Below, in pieces: positions 612 to 16,249 of a stretch of 18,317 nucleotides of DNA. The first letter of the stretch is position 1; every line of letters starts with the position of its first letter. The notes beneath the pieces are model-generated. The model worked only from the letters and a program-made list of their open reading frames with translations, did not search any database and was not told where the DNA came from. This stretch comes from a virus. Lineage: Duplodnaviria; Heunggongvirae; Uroviricota; Caudoviricetes. Both the position numbers and the translations under genes were made by a program. The stretch lies in IMG/VR virus record IMGVR_UViG_2519103024_000008. One strand, given 5' to 3'.

Positions 612-1280
612 ATGGTGAAATCAATGAAAAAAAACACAGATGATGGGGCTAAAATTTACACACCACTTACCCTAAAGCTTTATGACTGGTGGGTTTTGGG
701 AGTATCAAATCGGCTTGCATGGGGATGTCCTACAAAGGAACACCTTCTTCCACACTTTCTGGAACATGTAGGTAACAACCATCTGGATATTGGTGTTGGA
801 ACTGGGTTTTACCTTACTCACGTACCTGAGAGTAGTCTGATATCTTTAATGGATTTGAACGAAGCTAGCCTGAACGCGGCATCTACAAGGGCTGGGGAAT
901 CAAAAATTAAACATAAAATTAGCCATGATGTTTTTGAACCTTATCCCGCGGCGTTACATGGTCAATTTGATTCCATTTCCATGTTTTACCTTCTTCACTG
1001 CCTGCCTGGAAATATATCTACAAAAAGCTGTGTAATACGCAATGCGGCGCAGGCCTTAACTGACGATGGAACTCTATACGGAGCCACAATTCTTGGCGAT
1101 GGAGTTGTGCACAATAGCTTCGGTCAAAAACTGATGCGCATTTACAATCAGAAAGGCATCTTTTCAAACACAAAAGATTCCGAAGAAGGCTTAACACATA
1201 TACTCTCAGAGCATTTCGAGAATGTTAAAACCAAGGTTCAAGGTACTGTAGTAATGTTTTCCGCTTCAGGGAAAAAATAG
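612..1280 (+). CDS. Class I SAM-dependent methyltransferase, YbcY-like prophage moron (222 aa; alternative start at 624)
   Basis: Glycine-rich motif I LDIGVGTGFY, followed by an acidic residue at the end of the next strand (SLISLMDLNE). Only plus-strand gene in the window, visibly AT-rich relative to flanking tail genes, and flanked by direct repeats. Position between two tfa-like genes matches ybcY of DLP12 (recalled). Confidence 0.7.
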   Translation: MVKSMKKNTDDGAKIYTPLTLKLYDWWVLGVSNRLAWGCPTKEHLLPHFLEHVGNNHLDIGVGTGFYLTHVPESSLISLMDLNEASLNAASTRAGESKIKHKISHDVFEPYPAALHGQFDSISMFYLLHCLPGNISTKSCVIRNAAQALTDDGTLYGATILGDGVVHNSFGQKLMRIYNQKGIFSNTKDSEEGLTHILSEHFENVKTKVQGTVVMFSASGKK

Positions 1281-1285
1281 CATCC

Positions 1286-1500
1286 AACCGCAGCACGTTC
1301 TTGCTTAAGACGTGCTGCGGCATAATCCCAATGATTACTCCCTGACAGGGTTCGTAGGCCACTCAATATCAGGTGCAGTTGATGTATCAACACGGTTCAG
1401 CAACACCCGATACTTTTTCCAGGCTTCCAGCAATGAGGTTTCTTCCTCCGTTGCAATTTCCAGATCTGCAGCATCCTGAAGCGGCGCAATATGCTCACTG
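1286..1500. repeat. Direct repeat copy B (about 215 bp): 3' end of tfa plus downstream hairpin; partner at 236-451
   Basis: See copy A. Covers tfa codons for ...[52 protein letters not shown] and about 49 nt downstream. Confidence 0.7.
1288..1320. terminator. Strong stem-loop between convergent methyltransferase (+) and tfa (-) genes; possible bidirectional terminator
   Basis: Perfect inverted repeat CCGCAGCACGT ... ACGTGCTGCGG (11 bp) with 3 further pairs inside the loop. On the minus strand it is followed within ~12 nt by TTTTTT (revcomp of 1272-1277). A degenerate copy lies at 238-270. Confidence 0.4.
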
Positions 1501-1919
1501 GCTACCTGCATCAGGTTGTTTTTTGTTTCTTCCGCCTCCCGGATCCGGAACATTTTTTCTGCTTCCGTATCCTTCACCCAGGCTGTGCCGTTCCACTTCT
1601 GAAACTCCCCTTCCGGCGATAACCAGGTAACATTTTCCGGTAACGGACCGAGTTCAGAAATAAATAACTCGTCCCCTGACGCTACGTCATAAACCGTTTT
1701 ACCCCGATGGTCTTCAACGAGATGCCACGATGCCTCATCACTGTTGAAAACAGCCACAAAGCCAGCAGGAATATCTGGTGGTGCAATATCGGTACTGTTT
1801 GCTGGCAGACCTGTATGAGGCGGAATATATGCGTCACCTTCACCAATAAATTCATTAGTTCCGGCCAGCAGATTATAAATTTTTATGGTCCGTGCTTGTT
1901 CACTCATTCTGAATGCCAT
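1335..1919 (-). CDS. tfa: Tail fiber assembly protein Tfa (194 aa)
   Basis: N-terminus [54 protein letters not shown] matches lambda Tfa as recalled. Its ATG (1917-1919) overlaps the stf stop TAA (1919-1921), implying translational coupling. Confidence 0.9.
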
Positions 1920-4900
1920 TATGCAAGCCTCACAATATAGTTAAATGCGATGTTTTTGACGGTGTTTTCCGCGTTACCAGCAGCGTTAACGGTGATGGTG
2001 TGTCCATGTGAACCAATCGCAACGGAGTGCGTATGCGCACCAATACCTACAGTATGTGCATGTGCGCCAGAACTTGCTGCAGTACCAGACAGCGAGTGGG
2101 TATGAGCACCTGCTGACTGTGTCTGAATACGTTGATAATACGATCTACGGGAAGAAGTCCCCGGGCTTACTTGATACTGTGAATCCTGGACATAAGTGAA
2201 CCCACCGCCATCATAAAATGCTAACGCAGAACCGCCGCCTCCTGGCCAACGAATACCATTACCATGAGTATGATCACCGGCAGACCCCGTAGAGCCACTC
2301 AGACTGTGCGTATGCGCCCCGGTGTTATTCGTGGATTTGGTTCCGTAATCAAACGACGATGTGTTTTTCGTCCCCAAATCCGTACTGGATGCGCTGGCGC
2401 TGTGGGTGTGCGATTTAATGCCGTCCTGTTCCTGAGACAATACGGCACGACCACTGGCGGGTTTGCCCTTAATCGTCCAGCCACGCATATCAGGGATCAC
2501 GCCTGACGGATAAGCGGCTGCAAGTTTTGGGTATGCAGATTTGTCAAAAGTCTGCCCCTGCATCAGGGCATAGCCAGACGGAACGGTATCTGATGGCCAC
2601 GGGATTGGTGCGCCAGGCGGATAAAACTGCTCTGATGGCGTATAGAGTGAATAAACTGTACCGTCCGTTAACCCTTCCGGCTTATTAGCAGAATATGCTG
2701 GTGACGTATGAATCGTCACGCTGGCATTACTGGTATAATCCCATTGAATATTTACACCAGTCGCATAATTTCCGATTGCAACGTAAATATCGTAAGTATC
2801 ACCAGATGTATTGACCCAGGCAAAATTTGTAAACCCTGTCGATGTGCGCTGCCATAAAGCACCAGTAATCCCCTTCGGATTACCATTACCTGCACGCAAA
2901 ACAAGTTCAGATATACCTGCCTGTTGAGGTGACCCCACGTTAAATCCCGCACCACCAATCAACGTAATTGAAACAACAGAACTCGCCTGTGGCATGGTTA
3001 CCGTTGCTAATTTGAACCAACCAGCACCACCGCTGAATGACATTGTTGTTGAGTTAAGCGTACCAATATCTTTCGGCGTCAGTGTTATATCCGCTGAAAG
3101 CGCCTTACCATTCACCTTACGGGCAGAAGGTACCCGACCATTCGCATTATTATTAGCTGCTTTCACTGCTTTCGGTGTCGCGGCAAGCGTTTCAGATGCG
3201 CTGTTNNNNNNNNNNNNNNNNNNNNNNNNNNNNNNNNNNNNNNNNNNNNNNNNNNNNNNNNNNNNNNNNNNNNNNNNNNNNNNNNNNNNNNNNNNNNNNN
3301 NNNNNNNNNNNNNNNNNNNNNNNNNNNNNNNNNNNNNNNNNNNNNNNNNNNNNNNNNNNNNNNNNNNNNNNNNNNNNNNNNNNNNNNNNNNNNNNNNNNN
3401 NNNNNNNNNNNNNNNNNNNNNNNNNNNNNNNNNNNNNNNNNNNNNNNNNNNNNNNNNNNNNNNNNNNNNNNNNNNNNNNNNNNNNNNNNNNNNNNNNNNN
3501 NNNNNNNNNNNNNNNNNNNNNNNNNNNNNNNNNNNNNNNNNNNNNNNNNNNNNNNNNNNNNNNNNNNNNNNNNNNNNNNNNNNNNNNNNNNNNNNNNNNN
3601 NNNNNNNNNNNNNNNNNNNNNNNNNNNNNNNNNNNNNNNNNNNNNNNNNNNNNNNNNNNNNNNNNNNNNNNNNNNNNNNNNNNNNNNNNNNNNNNNNNNN
3701 NNNNNNNNNNNNNNNNNNNNNNNNNNNNNNNNNNNNNNNNNNNNNNNNNNNNNNNNNNNNNNNNNNNNNNNNNNNNNNNNNNNNNNACTCGCGTCGTTGT
3801 CGTAGCGTCCTGAGCAGTATATTTCCCGTTAGCAAGGTCATAGGCTGCCTTTACCGACTTTGGCGTTGCCGCCAGCATTTCAGATGTGCTGTTGGTTGCA
3901 CTACTGAGCTGGACAATTCCTTTTTGTGCTGTCGTAGCGTCCTGAGCAGTATATTTCCCGTTAGCAAGGTCATAGGCTGCCTTTACCGACTTTGGCGTTG
4001 CCGCCAGCATTTCAGATGTGCTGTTGGTCGCGTTGCTAAGCTGAACTATCCCTTTCTGTGCTGTCGTTGCATCCTGTGCGGTGTATTTCCCGTTAGCCAG
4101 CTCATACGCGGCCTTAACGGCTTTTGGCGTTGCCGCCAGTGACTCGGAAGTGCTGTTAGTCGCACTGCTGAGCTGTACTATCCCCTTTTTCGTCGTGCTC
4201 GCATCCTCAAGCGCCACGGCGGATGCAATATCCTCTGCCCGTTTTGCCGCTGTCTCAGCGCGCGTTGCCGCGGATTCCGCCGTACTTTTGCTCTGAGCTG
4301 CCGCCGTCGCACTGCCAGCTGCCTCTGTCGCCTTCGTGGATGCCGTCGTGGCGCTGCCCTTTGCTGCTGACGCCTGTCTGGTCGCCTCATCTTTTGAAGC
4401 AGACGCAGATGATGCCGATGACGCCGCCGAACTGGCGGACGATGCGGCAGCCGTTTTTGAGGATTCTGCGCTGGTTTCCGACGCTTTCGCGTTCGTCTTG
4501 GATGTCTTCGCTGCGGAAGCAGACCTCGCTGCTGCGCTGGCCTGTACAGCGGCTTCGCCAGCCTTCGTTGTGGCTGTTGAAGCAGACGATGCAGCACTTT
4601 CTGCCGATTTTCCGGCGGCGGTGGCACTGGCTGAGGCCTGCCCGGCACTTGTTGACGCGGCACTGGCAGATAATGCAGCCGCTGTTTTTGAGTCTGCCGC
4701 AGCTGAGGCGCTCTGTCCCGCTGCCGTTTCAGAAGACCTGGCGTTCGTCTCGGACGTTTTTGCCGCCTTCGCAGAATTTGCTGCCGCCGTTGCCGAGGAA
4801 GCTGCGCTGCTGGCGCTCGAGGCTGCGTTCGTTTCTGATGATTTTGCCGCCTCTTTTGAAGCCGACGCATCCCGTGCTGAAGTGGCTGCTTCTGACGCTT

Positions 4901-5582
4901 TCGTGGTCGCGGTGGATGCAGAAGTGGCTGCTGATTGTTGTGACGCTGCGGCATTCGTTTCTGACGTTTTCGCGGCACTGGCGCTGGTAGCTGCCGCGCT
5001 TTTTGATGACTCTGCAGCAGCAGCACTTTTTGCTGCTTCACGGGCCTTTGTCGATGCCGTTCCTGCGCTGGAAGACGCTGACTGAGCCGACGACGCGGCC
5101 TGTCCGGCTGACGTGCTGGCGGCACGTGCTGAGGCTGCAGCATCGGTTGCATGAGTTGCCGCCTCGCTGGCTGATGCACTGGCATCGCTGGCTGATTTTT
5201 TCGCGGCTGCCGTATTCTGTGCAACCGCGGAGGCGTTACGTGACACCTCTTCCACCATCTGCTCAAAGCGGCGCAGTGCCTCCGGTCGGACATCATCCTC
5301 CGTCATGGCACCGAGAAAATCATTCAGCGTACCTGGTCTGGAACCTTCATAGACGGTAATGGTCCCGGCATGTGAAGGCGGAAAACCTTCAACCAGCAGG
5401 GTGACGCTGTACTGACCATGCTCAACATCCATGCTGTAACGTCCGGCTTCATCCGGATTTTCAGAGGCCACCGTGTTCACCACCACCGTGCTGCTGGTTC
5501 GTCTGGCCTTCAGCACAATGGTGCAGTTCTGTACTGGTTTTCCTGTGCCATCTTTAAGCACGCCAGAAATTTTTACTGTCAT
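1919..5582 (-). CDS. stf: Side tail fiber protein Stf, interrupted by assembly gap 3206-3786
   Basis: N-terminus [28 protein letters not shown], a long Ala/Ser/Thr-rich low-complexity region, 44-aa [44 protein letters not shown] repeats, and a His-rich C-terminus ([58 protein letters not shown]), all typical of lambda Stf / T4 gp37-type fibers. ATG at 5580-5582. Confidence 0.85.
3206..3786. other. Assembly gap (581 N) inside stf
   Basis: Run of N read directly from the sequence; it abuts a near-identical 132-bp tandem repeat array. Confidence 1.
3787..4196. repeat. Coding tandem repeat array in stf, unit 132 bp (44 aa), at least 3 units (3801-3932, 3933-4064, 4065-4196) plus a partial unit at the gap edge
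   Basis: Units 1 and 2 are nearly identical at DNA level; unit 3 is more diverged. A related motif ([17 protein letters not shown]) reappears on the far side of the gap near 3150-3205. Confidence 0.85.
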
Positions 5583-5733: not shown

Positions 5734-6333
5734 TCAGAAACGGTATCCGATACCAACAATAAATGCATCCGTTCGCCAGTCGCCACTACCGGAACCTTCA
5801 TAAGCAAGGTCAATGGTCACGGATTCGGTCGGGTTAAACTGCACGCCAGCCCCCCACGCCAGAGACGTGTTGCTGTGGCGACCGTCATCACTTCCGGTCA
5901 GCACATCGTGCGTTTTCCCCTTGTTGTCAGTTACGCGGAGATAATCCCCGGAGAAAGTCGACACACGGCTGTAAGCCACACCCGCCATCGAATACGCGCT
6001 GAACCATTCATTCACGCGTACAGACGGCCCCGCCATCACGCTGAACCAGCGGTTACGCACGGAATCTTCATGCCAGCGGGTATCGCTGTAGTGCGTTTTT
6101 TGCTCATCCTCAGCATTGGCATAACTGAAGGACGTAATCAGCCCCAGCGCGTCCGTAAACTCATAACGGTATTTCACGTTAATCCCGTTCAGATTATCGC
6201 TGCCGGGAGCGTTCGTACGGGCATGAAGATACCCCGCGCTCAGTGTGGACTGATGTTCAGACGCCCATGCAGGCGCACCGGATACGGACAGACAGATGGC
6301 TGCGGACAAAATGACTGCACAAACTTTACGCAT
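5734..6333 (-). CDS. lom: Outer-membrane beta-barrel protein Lom (Ail/Lom family), 199 aa
   Basis: Signal peptide MRKVCAVILSAAICLSVSGAPAWA and C-terminal AYEGSGSGDWRTDAFIVGIGYRF ending in Phe, matching lambda Lom as recalled. SD GAGG upstream of the ATG at 6331-6333. Sits between J and stf as in lambda. Confidence 0.85.
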   Translation of the reverse strand: MRKVCAVILSAAICLSVSGAPAWASEHQSTLSAGYLHARTNAPGSDNLNGINVKYRYEFTDALGLITSFSYANAEDEQKTHYSDTRWHEDSVRNRWFSVMAGPSVRVNEWFSAYSMAGVAYSRVSTFSGDYLRVTDNKGKTHDVLTGSDDGRHSNTSLAWGAGVQFNPTESVTIDLAYEGSGSGDWRTDAFIVGIGYRF

Positions 6334-6400: not shown

Positions 6401-9400
6401 TCAGCTGATACTGATGCCTGCGGTGGCTTTCTTCATCACCACAACCAGCAAATCGCTGATACTTGCTGTGGGATACCAGTTATTCACCAGCCATGCTGAC
6501 ACCGAAAACTCCAGCGTCATGTGGCCGCGACCAGCTGGCATATCAATAACACCACTGTAAATCAGCGTATTATCCAGCGCGGTACGGTTATAAATTTCAG
6601 CACCGTTTTTCCGTACTATCAGGCGGCATGACGAATAAATATCGTTATTCTCCCGCTCATGTTTAGCGCCGCTGAATGCCACCGCCGGAATAACAATCTG
6701 CCGGTCAAACGGCTGATCGTCATAAACCCTGACGGTGATGGTCCCTGATGGCCACCGTTCCGGTGCACGGGAGTCCCGGGGGAAAGCTTTGCCCACTGTT
6801 TTAACGAGATCGCCTTCAATCTGGTTGGCGGACAATTTTCCCAGAACCCGACAGTTCTCGTTAATCGTGACGTTGTTGAGCGTCCCGGAGTTCGCATTCA
6901 CGTTACCGCTGATATCGGCATTTTTCGCCGTCAGCCGCCCGTCCGGTGTCAGGGAAAATGCCGGAGGATTACCGCCGCTGGTAATGGTCGGAGCCGTCAG
7001 GCGTTTCAGGAACACGTCGTTCATGAATATCTGATCGCCCTGACCAACAAACATCGGCTTTGTGTTGCCATTCGCAGGATTAATCATCGCAATCCGGTCA
7101 GCAGCCAGAAGCACCTGACTCTGCATACCTGCTGGCGTATTCTCAATACCGGCTCCGATACCCGCAATATAAAGGCGTCCGTCCTTCATCTGCTGCAGTT
7201 TCACGGCCCACATGCTGTTCAGGTTATTATTTGTATCAACCTGAACTTTCTGTATCTGCTGGATTGCCGCACTCTGGTCTTCCAGTTTTTTATTGACGGT
7301 CTGCGTGATTTCATTGCTGACATTCGTAATGGACGTCCTGATTTCAGCCAGGTCCGGCGCAAGCTGACCGTTATCAATCTGCGTCCACAACTCCTGGGCC
7401 AGATGTGTTTTCCCGATTTCTCCTTTGAAAAAATCCAGGTAACCTTCCGCATCATCGCTCGCCCGACCGACAGCCTCCACGAATGCCGATTTGCCAACGG
7501 TGTTCACACTGCGAACGTAAAAATAATAATCATGGCCCGGTTTGATATTGATACTGGCGGCTATCCAGTACAGCGCCGTACCAAGATAGCGGGCTGTGGT
7601 TTCAACCTGCCTGATATCGGTAATCCGCTTTTCCGAGAACCAGAACTCAAACTGTACCGTCGGGTCATAAACAGCAAGATGCGGCGTGGCGGTTATCTGA
7701 AAATAGCCCGGCGTCAGCTCAATCCTCGACGGTGCTGCCGGTGCGGCAATCCGGAACGATACCGACGCCGGATCGCCCTGCTGCCCCCGGGCATTTACCG
7801 CCCGGACTGTCAGCCTGTAGTTCCCCAGCGCCAGTTGCGTGAAGCGGTATGTGGTTTCCGTCGTCCGGGCCGTGCTGACCAGTCGCTCACTGCCGTCGTC
7901 CGCTGTTACGGTCAGACGGAGCAGGAAGCTCACGCCCTTCACCACCTTCGGTGTGTCCCATCGCGCCAGCACCTGATATTCCCCGCTGTCTGCAGTGACT
8001 TCGGCGGTCAGGTGCTGCACTGCTGGCGGCGTGACACCATTCACCGTGCCGCTCTGGTCACCGTCAAAGTGCGCCCCGTTATCCACGATGGCTTCTTTCT
8101 CCGGTACATGCTGCACGGCGGTGATGGCATACGTGCCGTCATCGTTCTCACGGATACTCACGCAGCGGAACAGGCGCTGGCGCAGCGTCGGCAGCTTCAG
8201 CCCCCACACGCTGTATTCTGCAACGCCGTCAGGAACACGGCTCACTTTCACCTTCACGCCGTCGGTGACGGACTGGACCTCCACGCTGACCGGATTACCC
8301 TGACCGTCAACCAGGCTTATCAGCGTGGTACCGGAGGATGGCAGCGTGATTTCACGGTCGAGCGTCAGCGTCCGGGTCTGGCTGTTCACCGCCAGCACGC
8401 GCCCGCCAATGCTGATCCCCGCATAGTCATCATCGCAGATTTCAATAACATCACCCGGTACATGGCGAAGCCCTTCTGCGCCGACGCTGAAATCCACGGT
8501 CTGCGTCTCCAGCAGTTCCGTTTAATCAGCCACAGCCCGGCGCGGTGTGCCTGCCCCCGGCTGGTCAGCCAAAGGCATCCATCTTCGTGACGTTACGACC
8601 GTAACGGGCAATGGCCTGCGTGTCCTCCACAGCTCTGTCNCCGTCTCCCAGCCGTTATCCGGTCAATCCAGTTCANNNNNNNNNNNNNNNNNNNNNNNNN
8701 NNNNNNNNNNNNNNNNNNNNNNNNNNNNNNNNNNNNNNNNNNNNNNNNNNNNNNNNNNNNNNNNNNNNNNNNNNNNNNNNNNNNNNNNNNNNNNNNNNNN
8801 NNNNNNNNNNNNNNNNNNNNNNNNNNNNNNNNNNNNNNNNNNNNNNNNNNNNNNNNNNNNNNNNNNNNNNNNNNNNNNNNNNNNNNNNNNNNNNNNNNNN
8901 NNNNNNNNNNNNNNNNNNNNNNNNNNNNNNNNNNNNNNNNNNNNNNNNNNNNNNNNNNNNNNNNNNNNNNNNNNNNNNNNNNNNNNNNNNNNNNNNNNNN
9001 NNNNNNNNNNNNNNNNNNNNNNNNNNNNNNNNNNNNNNNNNNNNNNNNNNNNNNNNNNNNNNNNNNNNNNNNNNNNNNNNNNNNNNNNNNNNNNNNNNNN
9101 NNNNNNNNNNNNNNNNNNNNNNNNNNNNNNNNNNNNNNNNNNNNNNNNNNNNNNNNNNNNNNNNNNNNNNNNNNNNNNNNNNNNNNNNNNNNNNNNNNNN
9201 NNNNNNNNNNNNNNNNNNNNNNNNNNNNNNNNNNNNNNNNNNNNNNNNNNNNNNNNNNNNNNNNNNNNNNNNNNNNNNNNNNNNNNNNNNNNNNNNNNNN
9301 NNNNNNNNNNNNNNNNNNNNNNNNNNNNNNNNNNNNNNNNNNNNNNNNNNNNNNNNNNNNNNNNNNNNNNNNNNNNNNNNNNNNNNNNNNNNNNNNNNNN

Positions 9401-9926
9401 NNNNNNNNNNNNNNNNNNNNNNNNNNNNNNNNNNNNNNNNNNNNNNNNNNNNNNNNNNNNNNNNNNNNNNNNNNNNNNNNNNNNNNNNNNNNNNNNNNNN
9501 CTGGATCTGAACCAGCAGGCGGACTTCCGACGGATTCCTGTCCTCCTTTGAGGTGGTTTCCACCAGTGCCTGCACACCGAAGGTAAAGCGCAGACGGTCG
9601 ATGTTTGCCGACGTGATGGTCCGGGTGATCGGCGTGTCATATTTCACTTCCGTACCCAGCACCGTCTCGGAGCCGGAGGATTCAAATCCCTCCGGCGGTG
9701 TCTGCTCCTGCTCACCTGCCCGGAACACCACCGTGACACCGGATATATTGGTATTCCCCTCACTGTCCAGCACCGGCGTACTGTTCAGCAGCACGCTTTT
9801 TAATCCGTCCACCGGACCTTCAACCGGCCCTTCGCTGATGGCATCGATCACACTCAGCAGCTGCGTGGACTTCAGGTTGTCCCTCGCTTCGCGCGGGGTA
9901 TGCCCCTTACTGCTTCCTTTACCCAT
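6401..9926 (-). CDS. J: Tail tip / host-specificity protein J (central tail fiber), interrupted by gap 8676-9500 and with frame breaks in 8498-8675
   Basis: N-terminus [54 protein letters not shown] and the long central region match lambda J as recalled. SD GAGGA precedes the ATG at 9924-9926. The last ~150 aa differ from lambda. The frame is restored by assuming 4 single-base deletions next to the gap. Confidence 0.85.
8676..9500. other. Assembly gap (825 N) inside J; isolated ambiguous base at 8640
   Basis: Run of N read directly from the sequence. Confidence 1.
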
Positions 9927-9940
9927 TCCTCACACTCCAT

Positions 9941-9968
9941 AAACAACAAAGCCGCCCAAAAGGCGGCT
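9941..9968 (-). terminator. Putative rho-independent terminator downstream of the lipoprotein gene, immediately upstream of the J ribosome-binding site
   Basis: Minus strand: 7-bp GC-rich stem (9950-9956 pairing 9962-9968) with 5-nt loop, followed by UUGUUGUUU (revcomp of 9941-9949). Confidence 0.45.
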
Positions 9969-9992
9969 CATGAGTTACGACAGGATTAACTA

Positions 9993-10331
9993 TTATTTAC
10001 ATGCATTAACACTATCAGCAAAAATTTTTGGCGTTAATGCTGGTACACGTTCATAAAGAGTAAAACTACTGCCATTTCCTGCTTTTTTGATATCAAGCAC
10101 AACATCATATCCCCCCATAGCCTGTGGAACTAAAAGGCTTACCCCATTCTCAATAGGAAGGGATGTTATAGGTGTTCCATTACCAGCCCATTGTCTGGAT
10201 ATGCAGCCTGACAATTCATCAATATTTTTTAATGAATTACCTTCCATTACAGGTTTTCCGGATTTTACGTAATCCAAAGATTTACATCCTGTTAAGGCAA
10301 TAATCGTGCAGAATAAAATCGTTTTGTTCAT
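9993..10331 (-). CDS. Small predicted lipoprotein (112-aa precursor), moron inserted between I and J
   Basis: From the ATG at 10329-10331: MNKTILFCTIIALTGC, a hydrophobic signal peptide with lipobox LTGC, giving a ~96-aa mature protein. The gene and both flanks are strongly AT-rich. The ORF track starts 4 codons earlier at a TTG. No family recognised. Confidence 0.6.
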   Translation of the reverse strand: MNKTILFCTIIALTGCKSLDYVKSGKPVMEGNSLKNIDELSGCISRQWAGNGTPITSLPIENGVSLLVPQAMGGYDVVLDIKKAGNGSSFTLYERVPALTPKIFADSVNACK

Positions 10332-10404
10332 ATAGCTAACCAATAGAATAATTATCAGTGTTCGATATAAATATTAAATTAGTTAGAACATGAGTAAAAT
10401 AATA

Positions 10405-11046
10405 TTACCGCCCAATTACCACAACCTGACCACCATCCCCTTCATCTGCCGTGCTGATCTCCTGAGATGCCACACGTGACCCCACGCGCATTTCACCGTA
10501 CAGAACAGGCAGGACATTGCCCTGGGCAACCATGTTATCCAGTGAGGAGAAATAGGTGTTCTGTTTGCCGTTATCCGTTGTCTGTGTACGGGGAGTTCTG
10601 GCTTTCGGTGCCAGCATCTGCGCCACACCACCAAGCGTCATCGCCGCACCCATTGAAAAGAGAATGTCACTGAAAGCGATACTGATCCCCGGCATCCAGA
10701 TTGCCGTAGCAATCAACGCCGCACCCAGCACCGCCTGAAACACACCGCCACTTTTTGCTCCCGCAAGACGCGGCACGATGTGGATCACGGCACCATTTGC
10801 CAGCGGCTCATTAAGACGGGATGATAATTCGGTTTCTCCTGCATCCCGCCCGGCAATCCGTACCTGATACCAGCCATCGCTCAGTTTCTGACGAAACGCC
10901 GGGAGCTGTGTGGCCAGTGCCCGGATGGCTTCAGCCCCCGTTTTCACACGAAGGTCGATGCGGCGGCCAAATCGTTGCAAATCCCCGTAAAGGCAGATGC
11001 GTGCCATTCCCGGTGACGCCAGAGGGAGTGTGTGCGTCGCTGCCAT
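10405..11046 (-). CDS. I: Tail assembly protein I (213 aa)
   Basis: Position between K and J, and N-terminus MAATHTLPLASPGMARICLYGDLQRFGRRIDLRVKTGAEAIRALA recalled as lambda gpI. Overlaps the 3' end of K in another frame; the exact start is uncertain (alternative ATG at 11005-11007). Confidence 0.8.
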   Translation of the reverse strand: MAATHTLPLASPGMARICLYGDLQRFGRRIDLRVKTGAEAIRALATQLPAFRQKLSDGWYQVRIAGRDAGETELSSRLNEPLANGAVIHIVPRLAGAKSGGVFQAVLGAALIATAIWMPGISIAFSDILFSMGAAMTLGGVAQMLAPKARTPRTQTTDNGKQNTYFSSLDNMVAQGNVLPVLYGEMRVGSRVASQEISTADEGDGGQVVVIGR

Positions 11047-11788: not shown

Positions 11789-12542
11789 NNNNNNNNNNNN
11801 NNNNNNNNNNNNNNNNNNNNNNNNNNNNNNNNNNNNNNNNNNNNNNNNNNNNNNNNNNNNNNNNNNNNNNNNNNNNNNNNNNNNNNNNNNNNNNNNNNNN
11901 NNNNNNNNNNNNNNNNNNNNNNNNNNNNNNNNNNNNNNNNNNNNNNNNNNNNNNNNNNNNNNNNNNNNNNNNNNNNNNNNNNNNNNNNNNNNNNNNNNNN
12001 NNNNNNNNNNNNNNNNNNNNNNNNNNNNNNNNNNNNNNNNNNNNNNNNNNNNNNNNNNNNNNNNNNNNNNNNNNNNNNNNNNNNNNNNNNNNNNNNNNNN
12101 NNNNNNNNNNNNNNNNNNNNNNNNNNNNNNNNNNNNNNNNNNNNNNNNNNNNNNNNNNNNNNNNNNNNNNNNNNNNNNNNNNNNNNNNNNNNNNNNNNNN
12201 NNNNNNNNNNNNNNNNNNNNNNNNNNNNNNNNNNNNNNNNNNNNNNNNNNNNNNNNNNNNNNNNNNNNNNNNNNNNNNNNNNNNNNNNNNNNNNNNNNNN
12301 NNNNNNNNNNNNNNNNNNNNNNNNNNNNNNNNNNNNNNNNNNNNNNNNNNNNNNNNNNNNNNNNNNNNNNNNNNNNNNNNNNNNNNNNNNNNNNNNNNNN
12401 NNNNNNNNNNNNNNNNNNNNNNNNNNNNNNNNNNNNNNNNNNNNNNNNNNNNNNNNNNNNNNNNNNNNNNNNNNNNNNNNNNNNNNNNNNNNNNNNNNNN
12501 NNNNNNNNNNNNNNNNNNNNNNNNNNNNNNNNNNNNNNNNNN
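11789..12542. other. Assembly gap (754 N) covering the M 3' end and most of L
   Basis: Run of N read directly from the sequence. Confidence 1.
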
Positions 12543-12826: not shown

Positions 12827-15397
12827 CGTCCACCTCCGGAGAACAGTCCACCATCACGCATCTGTGTCTGAATTTCATCACGGGCACCCTTGCGGGCCAT
12901 GTCATACACCGCCTTCAGAGCAGCCGGACCTATCTGCCCGTTCGTGCCGTCGTTGTTAATCACCACATGGTTATTCTGCTCAAACGTCCCGGACGCCTGC
13001 GACCGGCTGTCAGCCAGACTGCCCGGTGTACCGACATAACCACCGGTGGCATAGCCGCGCATCAGCCGATAGAGATTCCCCACGCCAATCCGGCTGGTTG
13101 CCTCCTTTGTGAAGACAAATTCACCACGGTGAACAATCCCCGCTGGCTCATATTTGCCGCCGGTTCCCGTAAATCCTCCGGTTGCAAAATGGAATTTCGC
13201 CGCGGCGGCCTGAATGGCTGTACCGCCTGACGCGGATGCGCCGCCACCAACAGCCCCGCCAATGGCGCTGCCGATACTCCCGACAATCCCCACCATTGCC
13301 TGCTTAAGCAGAATTTCTGTCATCATGGACAGCACGGAACGGGTGAATCCCCGCCAGTTCTGTTCGCTGCCGGTCAGCATCGCCGCCATATTCTGTGCAA
13401 TACCGTCAAAGGTCTGCGTGGCCACACTTTTAACCTGCGAAAAACTGTCCGTCGCACTTTCCGCCCACTCTCCCCAGCCGGACTTCATCCCGGCCATCCA
13501 GCTTCCACGAAGCTGCTCCTCCGCAGACCAGGTGTTCTTCAGTGCCGATGTGGCCTTCGCCAGCGCAGCCGGATTATCACCGTACACCTCACGAAGGCGC
13601 TGCTCTTCCGACTCCCGCTGCGCCTGACGGTCGGTGAGGCCGCGGGCTTTTGCGCTGATTGCCGCCTGCTTCGCGCTTTGCTGCTGTTCAAACCGCGCCG
13701 CCTGCTGTGCCAGCTCATTCAGCCGCTTCTGGTGTTCAATCTTGTCTCCCAGCTCAGCCAGCTGGCGTTTGTACTCCAGCGTCTCTTTCTCATGAGCCAG
13801 CAGGGATTTTTCCTGCTCAGATAACTGCCGTTTCGTGGCGGCCTCTTTCAGGACCACATACTGACTTTCCGCTTCCCATAAATCCCGGCGCTGCTGGCTG
13901 ATTTTCTCATTCACACCGCTGTGTTTTTCCAGCGTCCTGAGCTCGGTTTCAAGCGCCAGCAGGGCTGCATGCGCCCGGTCTTCCTGGCGCTCACCGGCAG
14001 ACACCTTCACACCTGACGGCTTTTTCAGCGTCGATTCATAATCCTTTTTTGCCGACGCCATCAGCGTGTTGTAATCCGCCTGCAGGATTTTTCCGTCTTT
14101 CAGGGCCTTATTCAGCTCTTTCTGACGGGCGGTATATTTATCCAGCGGCGTCTGCAGGCGCTCATACGCCTTCTGCGCCTCTCCGGTATACTTCAGCTGT
14201 GACGACTCACGCTCAGCCCTGTCCCTTGCCGCCAGTTCACCGGCTTTTTCCATATCCGACTGCAGCGTGGCCGCTGCCAGACCCAGACGGGCATTTTCCC
14301 GGTCATCCCATGCCCCCTGAAGGTTCGCACGAAAAGAGGAGGTCTTTCCCCGGCGCTGGCTCCGGCTCTGGTACCACTGCCATTTTTTATCCGCCTCATC
14401 AAATGCCTTCTGCGCACTGGCGAGCATATCCGCTGAGGATTCCGGACGACCGATATCCAGAATGGCATCCCACATCGATTTGAATGCCTTCCCTGTTTTA
14501 TCCGCCCAGGTCTCCAGTGTTCCCATGTTTTCTTTCAGGCGACGGGTCTGCTCATCAAAGCCTTTCGTGGCGATATCGTTCGCCGCCTGCAATGCCCCGG
14601 CCTCGTCTCCGGAACGCTGCAGCTGTGCAACATACGCAATCTGCTCTGCCGTCACGTTACGGAACTGGCGCGCCATCGCCATCAGTCCCGACGTCGGGTC
14701 AGTGGTCAGCTTCCCGAAGGCTTCAGCGACTTTATCCACCTCCACACCGGATGCAGACGCAAAACGCGCGACACTCTGGTTGATGGCATCAAACTGTTCA
14801 CCACCACGCACACCGGCATTCACCAGGGCTGCCAGTGACTCTCTCGCCTGGTTAAACGTCAGCCCTGCTGCCTGCCCGGCTCTTGAGAGCGTCAGCATAC
14901 GATCGGCAGTCAGTCCGGCCTGATTGCCGGAAAGGACCAGCGTTTTATTAAATTCTGAAAGCGTGGCGTCGCCCTGGTACCAGGCGTACGCCAGCGCACC
15001 TGTCGCCACCGCCAGCGAGGTGACCCCGACCATCGGCAGGGTGATCGCACCGGCAAGCCCCCTGAACATGGGGATCATCCCGCCGAAGGAGTCCTTCACC
15101 TGACCGCCCTGTTGCAGCAGGATCAACCAGGGATTCTGACCACCGGCAAGCTGCGTGGCGATATCCGTAAACTGTGCGGGCAGGGTTCGCATGGCCGCTT
15201 TATACTGCCCGGACGGAAATCCCGGCTTTTTGTGCAGCCAGCGCCTGGCGGCTCAGGCCCTGTTCAACAGCACTGGCGGTTTTTCTGGCGTCGGTATCCA
15301 GACCTGAAAAATGACGCCTTACCCGGCTCATCTGCTCATCGAAACGGACAGCATCCAGACTCAGGTCAATAACAAGATCACCAACCGGCTGGGACAT
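12823..15397 (-). pseudogene. H: Tail tape measure protein H, about 857 aa, broken by a +1 frameshift (extra C/G) at about 15208-15214
   Basis: Two adjacent ORFs (15200-15397, 65 aa; 12823-15192, 789 aa) jointly cover a lambda gpH-like protein (MSQPVGDLVIDLSLDAVRFDEQMSRVRRHFSG ... QTQMRDGGLFSGGGR). Removing one base from GTCCGGGCAG restores a continuous ...ISVGQYKAAMRTLPAQFTD... reading. May be sequencing error rather than true inactivation. Confidence 0.8.
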
Positions 15398-16249
15398 ATC
15401 TCACACCTCCCGGAATCCCCGCTGAAGCCATCATTAATGCGGCATCATCCACCATGACATCCGCCACATCCGCAGACGATAAAATATCGCGCCCTCCGTC
15501 CCCACCGAACCGGACGCCTCCGGCAAGTCCTGCCGCTTTCTGCATCAGCATTTTGTCCTCATCCGGCCTCTCCACCTGCTCTTCCTCATGCCGGGGGACA
15601 AGCAGACTGAAATCAGAGGGATGCATATCCGGATCGCAAAAAAACAGGCTGAGTACAGCGTACGTCAGCCCGGAAAAATGCATATCCAGCTGGGTATCCT
15701 GAAAATAATGCGTGCGGTAAAAACGGTGCCAGTCGGCATATTCGGTGGATGTCATCCCGGCAAGCATGGCGCGCCAGTCGGGTCTCCCCATCTCACGCGC
15801 CAGTCTGAGGGCAAAGTTCAGCTCGCCGTCGAAGACTTTCCCGCAGAAAAATCATCATCAGTCAGCGTGTTATTTTTCGCCACTTCAGTAATATCAGTAT
15901 CCGGACGAACAGCTTCGATCATCCCGGACAGGCACAACACCACGTCTTCCGCCCGGGCAATGGCATCGGCAGGCCAGGTGGTGAGCACTTCCTGCTCTAT
16001 CTTCATCACGGCCTCATTCATTGACGGTGACTGCGTTTTCTGTGGATGGTTATGCCACAGGGACATCGCCACCAGAAACGCGCCGGTTCTGACGAGATCT
16101 TCCACGCTTACCTGCAGGTTGCCGCAGGATTCTGCCTGTTCTGCACGCCGTTTCAGGAGGGCAAGATGCTCGATACGCTGCAGCGCAGACAATTCGGAAA
16201 GCGTGACAGACACACCGTTATATTCAAATTGTTCTGTTTTCAGAAACAT
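15378..16249 (-). CDS. T: Tail assembly chaperone G-T fusion made by programmed -1 ribosomal frameshift (T has no independent start)
   Basis: The -1 frame from the slippery heptamer reads GKVFDGELNFALRLAREMGRPDWRAMLAGMTSTEYADWHRF..., continuous with the T-frame ORF 15378-15791 and matching the lambda gpGT junction as recalled. Confidence 0.85.
15818..16249 (-). CDS. G: Tail assembly chaperone G (143 aa)
   Basis: MFLKTEQFEYNGVSVTLSELSALQRIEHLALLKRRAEQAE..., ending ...FSAGKSSTAS; position between V and H; contains the frameshift heptamer near its 3' end. Confidence 0.9.
   Translation of the reverse strand: MFLKTEQFEYNGVSVTLSELSALQRIEHLALLKRRAEQAESCGNLQVSVEDLVRTGAFLVAMSLWHNHPQKTQSPSMNEAVMKIEQEVLTTWPADAIARAEDVVLCLSGMIEAVRPDTDITEVAKNNTLTDDDFSAGKSSTAS
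15836..15842 (-). promoter_or_regulatory. Slippery heptamer G GGA AAG for the G/G-T -1 programmed frameshift
   Basis: Revcomp of 15836-15842 (CTTTCCC) is GGGAAAG, in the G frame as G GGA AAG (codons Gly-Lys of ...SAGKS...), identical to the lambda G-T slip site. Confidence 0.85.

What the first reader, a model, noticed from the sequence alone, without database searches (positions are those of the whole stretch)
9941..10404. AT-rich lipoprotein moron inserted between I and the receptor-binding gene J
In lambda, I is followed directly by J. Here a ~460-bp AT-rich island sits between them and carries a 112-aa predicted lipoprotein (signal peptide plus lipobox LTGC), with an AT-rich upstream region containing a possible -10 GATAAT (revcomp of 10351-10356) and a hairpin terminator just before the J ribosome-binding site. 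That is the classic self-contained moron layout, expressed from the prophage and read through during late transcription. I do not recognise the protein. By analogy with the T5 lipoprotein Llp, which is encoded next to the receptor-binding gene and masks FhuA, and with the Cor proteins of phi80/N15, a plausible role is masking the outer-membrane receptor recognised by this phage's J or Stf (superinfection exclusion). A virulence or envelope-fitness role is equally possible.
Basis: partly seen in the sequence, partly recalled or inferred. Interest (0 to 1): 0.7.

Follow-up and report, generated by a model that had tools for sequence, protein, structure and literature searches.

The report
Uncharacterised lipoprotein gene in tail module
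A lambda-like prophage of E. coli carries an extra, AT-rich gene between tail genes I and J that encodes a small outer-membrane lipoprotein of an unstudied family; relatives of this gene recur inside the tail-tip gene cluster of related phages, so it is a reasonable but unproven candidate for a new phage-exclusion protein.

Summary
Window 9927-10404 is a 478-bp gap of 35% GC between tail genes I and J; lambda and its relatives have 60 bp there. It carries a real 112-aa gene (9993-10331, minus strand) with a canonical lipoprotein signal (LTG|C). The gene is under purifying selection (pN/pS about 0.16). It gives a confident predicted alpha/beta fold and matches PHROG 914 (unknown function). It has no Pfam, NCBIfam, PADLOC or PDB sequence match. 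It occurs in about 6% of complete E. coli genomes and is always annotated hypothetical. No close copy exists in 50,697 phage records.

Two parts of the interpretation need correcting.
- **Hairpin:** the hairpin before J is ancestral. Lambda has the same one, so the insert did not bring it.
- **Receptor link:** the lipoprotein is not tied to J's receptor-binding end. Identical copies sit beside at least three J C-terminal alleles, and the same allele occurs without the insert.

It is unrelated in sequence and fold to Llp, Rtp45 and Bor, and matches no other PHROG or Pfam family (Cor was not compared directly). Homologues at 27-59% identity lie mostly between K and I, and some lie in the HK97 gp15 slot. 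Best guess, about 0.4: an envelope-acting exclusion factor. The function is untested.

The parts
10405..11046 (-). Tail tip assembly gene I, the upstream neighbour. The longest ORF starts at 11046. By offset from the NCBI (PGAP) annotation of UTI89, the annotated start corresponds to about 10980 (191 aa).
   Evidence: Pfam Lambda_tail_I at E 4.4e-24; UTI89 annotation.
10332..10404 (-). A 73-nt AT-rich spacer between the I stop codon and the lipoprotein ATG. It holds the candidate -10 GATAAT at 10351-10356. The Shine-Dalgarno sequence is weak (TTGGTTAGCTAT before the ATG).
   Evidence: Sequence. No sigma-70-like site was called on this strand. The GATAAT hexamer does not vary in 61 copies.
9993..10331 (-). 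Lipoprotein gene of 112 aa (WP_001332187.1, 'hypothetical protein'). The stop codon is at 9993-9995.
   Evidence: ORF. PHROG 914 at E 7e-33. Homologues. pN/pS about 0.16. AlphaFold2 pLDDT 83.6.
10284..10331 (-). Signal peptide plus lipobox, MNKTILFCTIIALTG|C. The lipidated Cys16 codon is at 10284-10286, and residue +2 is Lys.
   Evidence: Read directly from the sequence. C16, C43 and C111 are invariant in 44 diverse members.
9939..9969 (-). GC-rich hairpin (9949-9969) with a T-rich tail, shaped like an intrinsic terminator. It is ancestral to the I-J gap and did not arrive with the insert.
   Evidence: Terminator scan and fold. The homologous hairpin is present in lambda, PhiR49_1 and PhiR47_2, with a compensatory change.
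6401..9926 (-). Tip attachment and host-specificity gene J, the downstream neighbour. Its Shine-Dalgarno sequence GAGGA is at 9927-9931. Part of the gene is masked by N (8676-9500).
   Evidence: Pfam FNIII-A_GpJ. UTI89 annotation and coordinate mapping.
10389..10395 (.). One copy of a 7-bp direct repeat (CATGAGT on the + strand). The other copy is at 9969-9975, 420 bp away. The pair brackets the presumed insert. This is weak evidence for a junction duplication.
   Evidence: the repeat finder family D8. About seven such 7-mers are expected by chance in 491 bp, so this is only suggestive.

Best explanation
**What is shown.** Window 9970-10404 is a horizontally acquired accessory insert in the tail-tip operon of a lambda-like prophage. 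The prophage is 99.7-99.97% identical to the UTI89 prophage next to ompW/trp over the unmasked blocks. The insert's one gene encodes a Sec/Lol-exported lipoprotein of about 96 mature residues, anchored by Cys16. The absence of Asp at +2 predicts the inner leaflet of the outer membrane. The gene belongs to an uncharacterised family (PHROG 914) that is a recurrent cargo of siphophage tail-tip modules in Enterobacteriaceae. Family members always lie on the tail-gene strand and are always followed by a hairpin and a T run. Most lie between K and I, this one lies between I and J, and some lie between T and the tape-measure gene.

**What is inferred.** The gene can at least be transcribed with the late tail operon. 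Whether it also has its own promoter in the lysogen is unknown. The most likely job is to act in the envelope of the lysogen or infected cell to stop infection by other phages (superinfection exclusion). This would happen at a step that does not depend on the receptor-binding end of J. Two candidate steps are a conserved outer-membrane or periplasmic component, and the periplasmic passage of the ejected tail-tip or tape-measure proteins.

The stated confidence refers to this functional guess. The anatomical part is near certain.
For: **A real, selected gene.**

**An insert relative to lambda and 150 or more related phages.** GC is 35% against 58% in the flanks.

**Accessory, not structural.**
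- It occurs in 337 of 5,426 complete E. coli genomes.
- It occupies about 349 of about 7,660 matching I-J junctions.
- There is no close copy in 50,697 phage records.

**Persistent link to the tail-tip module across deep divergence.**
- Between K and I: Klebsiella P0013; Yersinia P0022; P0021; P0027 and P0028; P0030; phage Fraca; Kluyvera; IMG/VR loci.
- Between T and H: Enterobacter, Citrobacter and Salmonella prophages. This is the slot of the HK97 gp15 moron, a proven exclusion protein (PMC3594210).

**Precedent.** Phage-encoded outer-membrane lipoproteins that exclude phages are established: Llp with FhuA (PMC9586334) and Rtp45 with LptDE (PMC12685063).
Against: - There is no experimental or expression evidence of any kind.
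- There is no sequence or fold relation to any known exclusion protein.
- The gene is uncoupled from the J receptor-binding allele. In Klebsiella the identical protein sits beside J genes of 3,104-3,367 aa.
- The family also has a non-prophage chromosomal member, in Shimwellia blattae next to ecotin. A general envelope function is therefore possible.
- Tail-operon gaps may simply be permissive sites for any cargo.
Confidence: 0.4

Rival explanations
1. The lipoprotein binds the periplasmic face of the outer-membrane receptor recognised by this phage's J or Stf and allosterically masks it, as Llp does with FhuA and Cor does.
For: It is a small phage-encoded outer-membrane lipoprotein lying next to the J gene. 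There is precedent from Llp and Rtp45 (PMC9586334; PMC12685063).
Against: - Identical lipoprotein copies occur with at least three J C-terminal alleles, at 97-100%, about 60% and about 41% identity over the last 150 aa.
- The same J allele occurs without the lipoprotein.
- The gene lies 3.4 kb from the receptor-binding 3' end of J, so the two are not inherited as one module.
- Homologues sit next to K, I or H rather than next to receptor-binding genes.
- There is no similarity to Llp or Rtp45, and no match to any other family.
Confidence: 0.15
2. A lysogenic-conversion factor for host fitness or virulence, of the Bor/Iss or Lom type. It would be an envelope lipoprotein that alters serum resistance, adhesion, stress tolerance or membrane homeostasis, and would have nothing to do with phages.
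For: - It is present in many extraintestinal pathogenic strains (UTI89, S88, APEC O1, IHE3034, NU14) and in O104:H4.
- Lambda's own lipoprotein moron Bor works this way (PMC3594210).
- The closest solved fold is Flpp3, a Francisella virulence lipoprotein.
- A chromosomal homologue exists outside prophages.
Against: - There is no Pfam Lambda_Bor match.
- Strict residence inside tail-tip operons from E. coli to Yersinia, on the late-gene strand, is not explained by a host-fitness role.
- The fold match is generic, at 6-9% identity.
- The same protein also occurs in environmental and commensal isolates.
Confidence: 0.22
3. A late-expressed helper of the phage's own lytic cycle. It would be read only as part of the late tail transcript. 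It would protect progeny from adsorbing to debris or vesicles, or would modify the envelope before lysis. On this view it is not a prophage-expressed moron.
For: - It is co-oriented with the late operon in every locus.
- No promoter was detected.
- In one relative the start codon overlaps the stop of K, leaving no room for an intergenic promoter.
- The downstream hairpin is the ordinary lambda one, which late transcription reads through.
Against: - It is dispensable. Most relatives, and every isolated lambdoid phage found here with this I-J junction, lack it.
- AT-rich upstream spacers with -10-like hexamers are present.
- The debris-protection version overlaps mechanistically with exclusion.
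Confidence: 0.15

Closest known systems
HK97 gp15 moron (inner-membrane superinfection-exclusion protein, YebO-like)
   Same: - Both are small accessory envelope proteins encoded inside the siphophage tail operon.
- Homologues of the window protein in Enterobacter, Citrobacter and Salmonella occupy exactly the gp15 slot, between the T chaperone and the tape-measure gene (PMC3594210).
- Both families have non-prophage chromosomal relatives.
   Different: gp15 is an inner-membrane protein, not a lipoprotein, and there is no sequence relation. The window copy lies between I and J. An exclusion function is not shown here.
T5 Llp (FhuA), and Cor of phi80, N15 and T1
   Same: All are phage-encoded lipoproteins with a Cys-anchored signal, encoded near tail or receptor-binding genes.
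   Different: - Llp is much smaller (an 83-residue chain in 8a60_B), against about 96 mature residues here; Cor is also recalled as small (own knowledge).
- The only match to Llp (8a60_B) is the signal peptide, at E 0.66.
- There is no match to any PHROG other than 914 and no Pfam family match. Cor was not compared directly.
- The gene is not co-inherited with the receptor-binding allele.
Rtp45 (LptDE-binding exclusion lipoprotein of phage Rtp)
   Same: It is a phage lipoprotein acting from the periplasmic side of an outer-membrane protein (PMC12685063).
   Different: Rtp45 is about 6 kDa and unrelated. There is no PDB sequence match at E up to 10, and it is not among the listed fold matches.
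Lambda Bor / Iss lipoprotein moron
   Same: It is an AT-rich single-gene lipoprotein insert in a lambdoid prophage, of about 100 aa.
   Different: There is no Lambda_Bor Pfam match. The location differs: Bor lies in the lysis region and this gene in the tail-tip operon. Serum resistance has not been tested.
Flpp3 / DUF3568 (Francisella lipoprotein) and the BamC N-terminal domain
   Different: Identity is 6-13%. No Pfam DUF3568 hit was found in 44 family members. The fold class is generic (TBP-like, helix-grip, KA1-like), so it gives no functional inference.

Membership tests
Moron (Juhala/Hendrix definition) | Extra DNA between two genes that are adjacent in related phages | tested here: met
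   The I-J gap is 478 bp, against 60 bp in lambda, PhiR49_1 and PhiR47_2. The best-matching records listed among 154 in the phage collection lack the insert and cover only 59-72% of the query.
Moron (Juhala/Hendrix definition) | Nucleotide composition deviating from the flanks | tested here: met
   GC is 35-36% in the insert against 58-59% in the flanks.
Moron (Juhala/Hendrix definition) | Own promoter | tested here: inconclusive
   No sigma-70-like site was called on the coding strand. GATAAT at 10351-10356 exists but has a poor -35 element. The region is AT-rich, so -10-like hexamers are expected by chance.
Moron (Juhala/Hendrix definition) | Own terminator | tested here: inconclusive
   A hairpin with a T tail follows the gene, but it is homologous to the hairpin in lambda's own I-J gap. 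In the K|I and T|H homologues a hairpin with a T run also follows the gene, in places where lambda has none.
Moron (Juhala/Hendrix definition) | Expression from the repressed prophage | not testable with these tools
   This needs RNA-seq or 5' RACE of a lysogen. No paper mentions the protein.
Bacterial lipoprotein (PROSITE PS51257 / lipobox) | A positive n-region, an uncharged h-region and [LVI][ASTVI][GAS]C, with the Cys within residues 15-35 | tested here: met
   MNKTILFCTIIALTG|C16, read from the sequence. The Pfam LPAM_1 model hits some members. SignalP and LipoP were not available.
PHROG 914 (unknown function) | Full-length profile match | tested here: met
   E 7.3e-33, with residues 1-112 matched to profile positions 1-118 of 118.
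Llp (T5) exclusion lipoprotein | Sequence or fold similarity of the mature domain | tested here: not met
Llp/Cor-type receptor-masking module | Co-inheritance of the lipoprotein with the cognate receptor-binding domain | tested here: not met
   One lipoprotein occurs with three J C-terminal alleles. The same allele occurs without the lipoprotein.
Llp/Cor-type receptor-masking module | Blocks adsorption by binding the receptor | not testable with these tools
   This needs plating and adsorption assays, or co-folding and pull-down experiments.
Lambda Bor (PF06291) | Pfam profile match | tested here: not met
   No Pfam family matched at E up to 1, and none matched in 44 members beyond signal-peptide models.
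Structural tail component | Conserved presence in related virions and cytoplasmic assembly | tested here: not met
   It is absent from lambda and from the isolated relatives. It carries an export and lipidation signal, which is incompatible with cytoplasmic tail assembly (inference).
Known anti-phage defence proteins (PADLOC-DB) | Profile match | tested here: not met
   No hits for the window protein or for four homologues at E up to 1.

The most novel reading that the evidence does not exclude
PHROG 914 is a new, structurally distinct family of exclusion lipoproteins linked to the tail-tip module. Instead of masking the receptor read by J, these proteins would intercept a conserved post-adsorption step from the inner face of the outer membrane. 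A candidate step is the periplasmic transit or membrane insertion of ejected K, I or tape-measure proteins. They would therefore exclude whole classes of lambda-like and HK97-like siphophages, whatever receptor those phages use.
Probability: 0.2. Interest if true: 0.65.

Novelty: new member of a known kind. Interest (0 to 1): 0.4.

Why it matters
- **A testable candidate.** If the protein excludes phages, it would add a fourth unrelated family of phage lipoprotein exclusion factors to Llp, Cor and Rtp45. This family is common in clinical E. coli (ST95-type uropathogenic and avian strains, and O104:H4), Klebsiella, Enterobacter and Yersinia, so it bears on host-range prediction for phage therapy.
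- **An unusual property.** Independence from the J receptor-binding allele would point to a target other than the primary receptor.
- **A reusable method.** Even if the function differs, the persistent K-lipoprotein-I-J arrangement marks accessory slots in siphophage tail-tip operons that can be mined systematically.
- **Current standing.** As it stands this is an ordinary-looking hypothetical prophage gene with a solid anatomical description and no functional data.

Tried and rejected
**Explanations rejected**
- **Homology to Llp, Rtp45 or Bor, or to any named family (which would include Cor).** Rejected.
- **Structural tail protein.** Rejected, because it is absent from relatives and carries an export signal.
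- **A small RNA or other RNA element in the island.** The Rfam gathering scan found none there. The only weak hit was GcvB at 19.6 bits against a gathering score of 42, driven by the terminator. The prophage sRNA svsR described in PMC12803456 lies at cI and not here.
- **Tail-assembly-interference defences (Tai, Tab).** Tai genes lie elsewhere in phage genomes, and these defences are presumed to act in the cytoplasm, so they were rejected.
- **Insertion by an IS or MITE-like element.** No convincing terminal inverted repeats were found. The 7-bp flanking direct repeat (9969-9975 and 10389-10395) is no more than chance would give in 491 bp.
- **Plus-strand ORFs inside the island** (10087-10272 and 10172-10303). 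No evidence supports them, and they are antisense to a conserved gene.

**Searches that led nowhere**
- Literature searches for WP_001332187 and phrog_914.
- The afdb50 fold library was unavailable.
- The search for related loci with the diverse alignment failed.
- The genome-contig scan returned only one locus.
- Several distant family members lay on contigs too short to show their context.
- A search for an exact empty site in E. coli genomes was uninformative, because the occupied sites outrank everything else.

Full report
**1. The observation**

The window is the late (tail) region of a lambda-like prophage read on the minus strand. Its unmasked blocks are 99.7-99.97% identical to the prophage next to ompW/trp in E. 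coli UTI89. Gene I (10405-11046, Pfam Lambda_tail_I at E 4e-24) and gene J (start 9926, FNIII-A_GpJ at E 3.5e-13) are separated by 478 bp. In lambda, PhiR49_1 and PhiR47_2 the same gap is 60 bp.

The gap holds one ORF, 9993-10331 on the minus strand, of 112 aa. Its N-terminus is MNKTILFCTIIALTG|CK. This satisfies the PROSITE lipoprotein rule: a Lys in the n-region, six uncharged residues, then A-L-T-G-C16. Lys at +2 predicts Lol sorting to the outer membrane under the established E. coli rule.

**2. It is a real gene**

- It matches PHROG 914 ('unknown function') end to end at E 7e-33.
- The word-indexed search found 50-62% identical full-length proteins in Klebsiella, Enterobacter, Kluyvera and Jejubacter.
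- The exhaustive HMM search found 125 clusters at E below 1e-3, nearly all of 105-125 aa.
- Across 44 diverse members exactly three Cys are invariant: the lipidated Cys, C43 and C111. The last two may form a periplasmic disulfide, which is an inference.
- Among 61 full-length copies of the E. coli island, the variable CDS sites are 11 synonymous and 6 non-synonymous, giving pN/pS of about 0.16.
- AlphaFold2 on a 12-sequence alignment gives pLDDT 83.6 and pTM 0.75. The model has helices packed on an antiparallel sheet of roughly five strands.

**3. What it is not**

- There is no Pfam hit, including Lambda_Bor. The only NCBIfam hit is a sub-threshold signal-peptide match to VirB7 (E 0.08, 12.7 bits against a cut-off of 60). 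There is no PADLOC hit.
- A family profile against all PDB sequences matches only signal peptides. T5 Llp (8a60_B) is hit over residues 1-20 only, at E 0.66.
- Neither Llp nor Rtp45 is among the listed matches.
- Among predicted viral structures, only an uncharacterised Pseudomonas phage protein matches well.
- Every database name for the protein is 'hypothetical protein', 'Lipoprotein' or 'Phage protein', and no paper mentions it.

**4. The hairpin**

The hairpin at 9949-9969 (GAGCCGCC-TTT-GGGCGGCTT plus a T-rich tail) is real. Lambda has AAACCGCC-TGC-GGGCGGTTT plus a T-rich tail at the same place in its 60-bp I-J gap, and so do PhiR49_1 and PhiR47_2. The window differs by a compensatory A-T to G-C pair.

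The hairpin is therefore an ancestral I-J feature, and the insert landed upstream of it. The insert proper is roughly 9970-10404. It is bracketed by a 7-bp direct repeat 420 bp apart, but repeats of that size are expected by chance in this much sequence.

No sigma-70-like promoter was called on the coding strand. Autonomous expression is therefore undecided.

**5. Distribution**

- The island is in 337 of 5,426 complete E. coli genomes, at 349 places and 95-100% identity. These include UTI89, S88, APEC O1, IHE3034, NU14, the type strain and O104:H4.
- The junction itself matches about 7,660 places in 4,086 genomes, so roughly 1 junction in 20 is occupied.
- None of 50,697 phage records has a close copy. 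Only two Hendrixvirinae phages, Fraca and LMessi, have homologues, at 29-31% identity.
- Some copies are frameshifted (P0002, P0007, P0017, P0018), as expected in decaying prophages.

**6. Context of relatives (the main new finding)**

The family lives inside siphophage tail operons, always on the tail-gene strand, in three slots.

| Slot | Where seen | Identity to the window protein |
|---|---|---|
| I\|J | E. coli only; 58 IMG/VR loci, plus two truncated ones, the window and L095 | 92-100% |
| K\|I | Klebsiella P0013; Kluyvera; Yersinia P0022; metagenomic P0021, P0027, P0028, P0030; phage Fraca; several IMG/VR loci | 27-59% |
| T\|H | Enterobacter, Citrobacter and Salmonella prophages | 51-52% |

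- The T|H slot is the position of the HK97 gp15 moron, a proven exclusion protein (PMC3594210).
- In every phage copy inspected except L078, a GC hairpin with a T run follows the gene.
- In one relative the start codon overlaps the stop of K, and that gene is not AT-rich.
- One member, in Shimwellia blattae at 38% identity, is chromosomal. It lies between a YidB-like gene and ecotin, has native GC content and has no phage genes nearby.
- Four distant members lay on contigs too short to judge.

**7. Test of the receptor-masking idea**

If the lipoprotein masked the receptor read by J, it should travel with J's receptor-binding C-terminus, as llp does with pb5. It does not.

- Among IMG/VR loci with 99-100% identical lipoprotein, the last 150 aa of J are 93-100% identical to the window's in most loci. 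They are about 60% identical in five loci and about 41% in six.
- Conversely, the window's J C-terminal allele (97% or higher) occurs in phages whose I-J junction lacks the insert: vB_EcoS-640R1 and PhiR55_1, and also VT1-Sakai and the PPompW phages.
- In Klebsiella the identical lipoprotein sits beside J genes of 3,104-3,367 aa.

The alleles might share a receptor, and accessory genes need not be universal.

**8. Most likely mechanism**

*Shown:* the island is a horizontally acquired single-gene accessory insert. It encodes an exported, lipid-anchored protein of an uncharacterised family that is persistently associated with tail-tip genes.

*Inferred:* the protein is anchored in the inner leaflet of the outer membrane. 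It is transcribed at least with the late operon and possibly also from the prophage. Its likeliest role is superinfection exclusion at a step that does not depend on J's receptor-binding end. That step could be a conserved envelope component, or the periplasmic passage of ejected tail-tip or tape-measure proteins, by analogy with gp15, whose slot some homologues occupy.

I put this at about 0.4. The rivals are:
- a Bor-like host-fitness lipoprotein, about 0.22;
- a late-only helper of the phage's own cycle, about 0.15;
- Llp-like masking of the J receptor, about 0.15.

**9. Novelty and interest**

The kind of element is well known: a lipoprotein-encoding accessory gene in a prophage late operon. 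The family has no assigned function, is unrelated to the known exclusion lipoproteins, and shows an unusual fidelity to the K-I-J region over deep divergence. That makes it a reasonable experimental candidate, but not a surprise to a specialist. The gene is already in databases as a hypothetical protein in hundreds of genomes. Interest 0.4; novelty 'new member of a known kind'.

Noticed in passing
window 1378-1576 (-): A full-length Rfam IS009 match (RF02111, 223.8 bits against a gathering score of 117) lies inside the tail-fibre-assembly ORF at 1335-1919.
   Followed up: no
window 612-1280 (+): A 222-aa ORF on the strand opposite to the tail genes, just beyond the tail-fibre assembly gene, is annotated in UTI89 as a class I SAM-dependent methyltransferase. 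It looks like a second accessory gene at the prophage end.
   Followed up: no
window 5734-6333 (-): An Ail/Lom-family outer-membrane protein gene lies between J and the side tail fibre gene, as in lambda.
   Followed up: no
window 3206-3786, 8676-9500, 11789-12542: The N-masked runs do not preserve length relative to UTI89. For example, 825 N stand where UTI89 has 775 bp, and a 592-bp span (581 of it N) stands where UTI89 has 36 bp. Reading frames of stf, J and L/K cannot be followed across them in the window.
   Followed up: partly
window 9949-9969; L100 (lambda 15380-15540): The I-J intergenic hairpin with a T tail is conserved from lambda to this prophage, with a compensatory A-T to G-C change. 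This suggests a selected RNA or terminator element in the late operon, independent of the insert.
   Followed up: partly
L010-L012, L080-L085 (Enterobacter-type prophages), gene at 5001-5342: Homologues of the lipoprotein occupy the slot between the tail chaperone T and the tape-measure gene in HK97-like prophages. This is the position of the HK97 gp15 exclusion moron.
   Followed up: partly
L015 (Shimwellia blattae CP001560) 5001-5339: A 38%-identical family member lies in a non-prophage chromosomal context between a YidB-like gene and ecotin, near copCD/yebY. Its GC content is native, at 62%.
   Followed up: partly
L089-L091 (Yersinia prophages) 1000-4000: In these prophages the stretch upstream of the lipoprotein gene and gene I carries an Arc/Mnt-Ant-Bro-KilA-type cassette. 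The stretch upstream of I therefore appears to be a general cargo hotspot.
   Followed up: no
L099 3053-3424: In one metagenomic relative the lipoprotein start codon overlaps the stop of K. The gene is not AT-rich there (52% GC against 54% for the locus). It looks like an integrated operon member rather than a recent insert.
   Followed up: no
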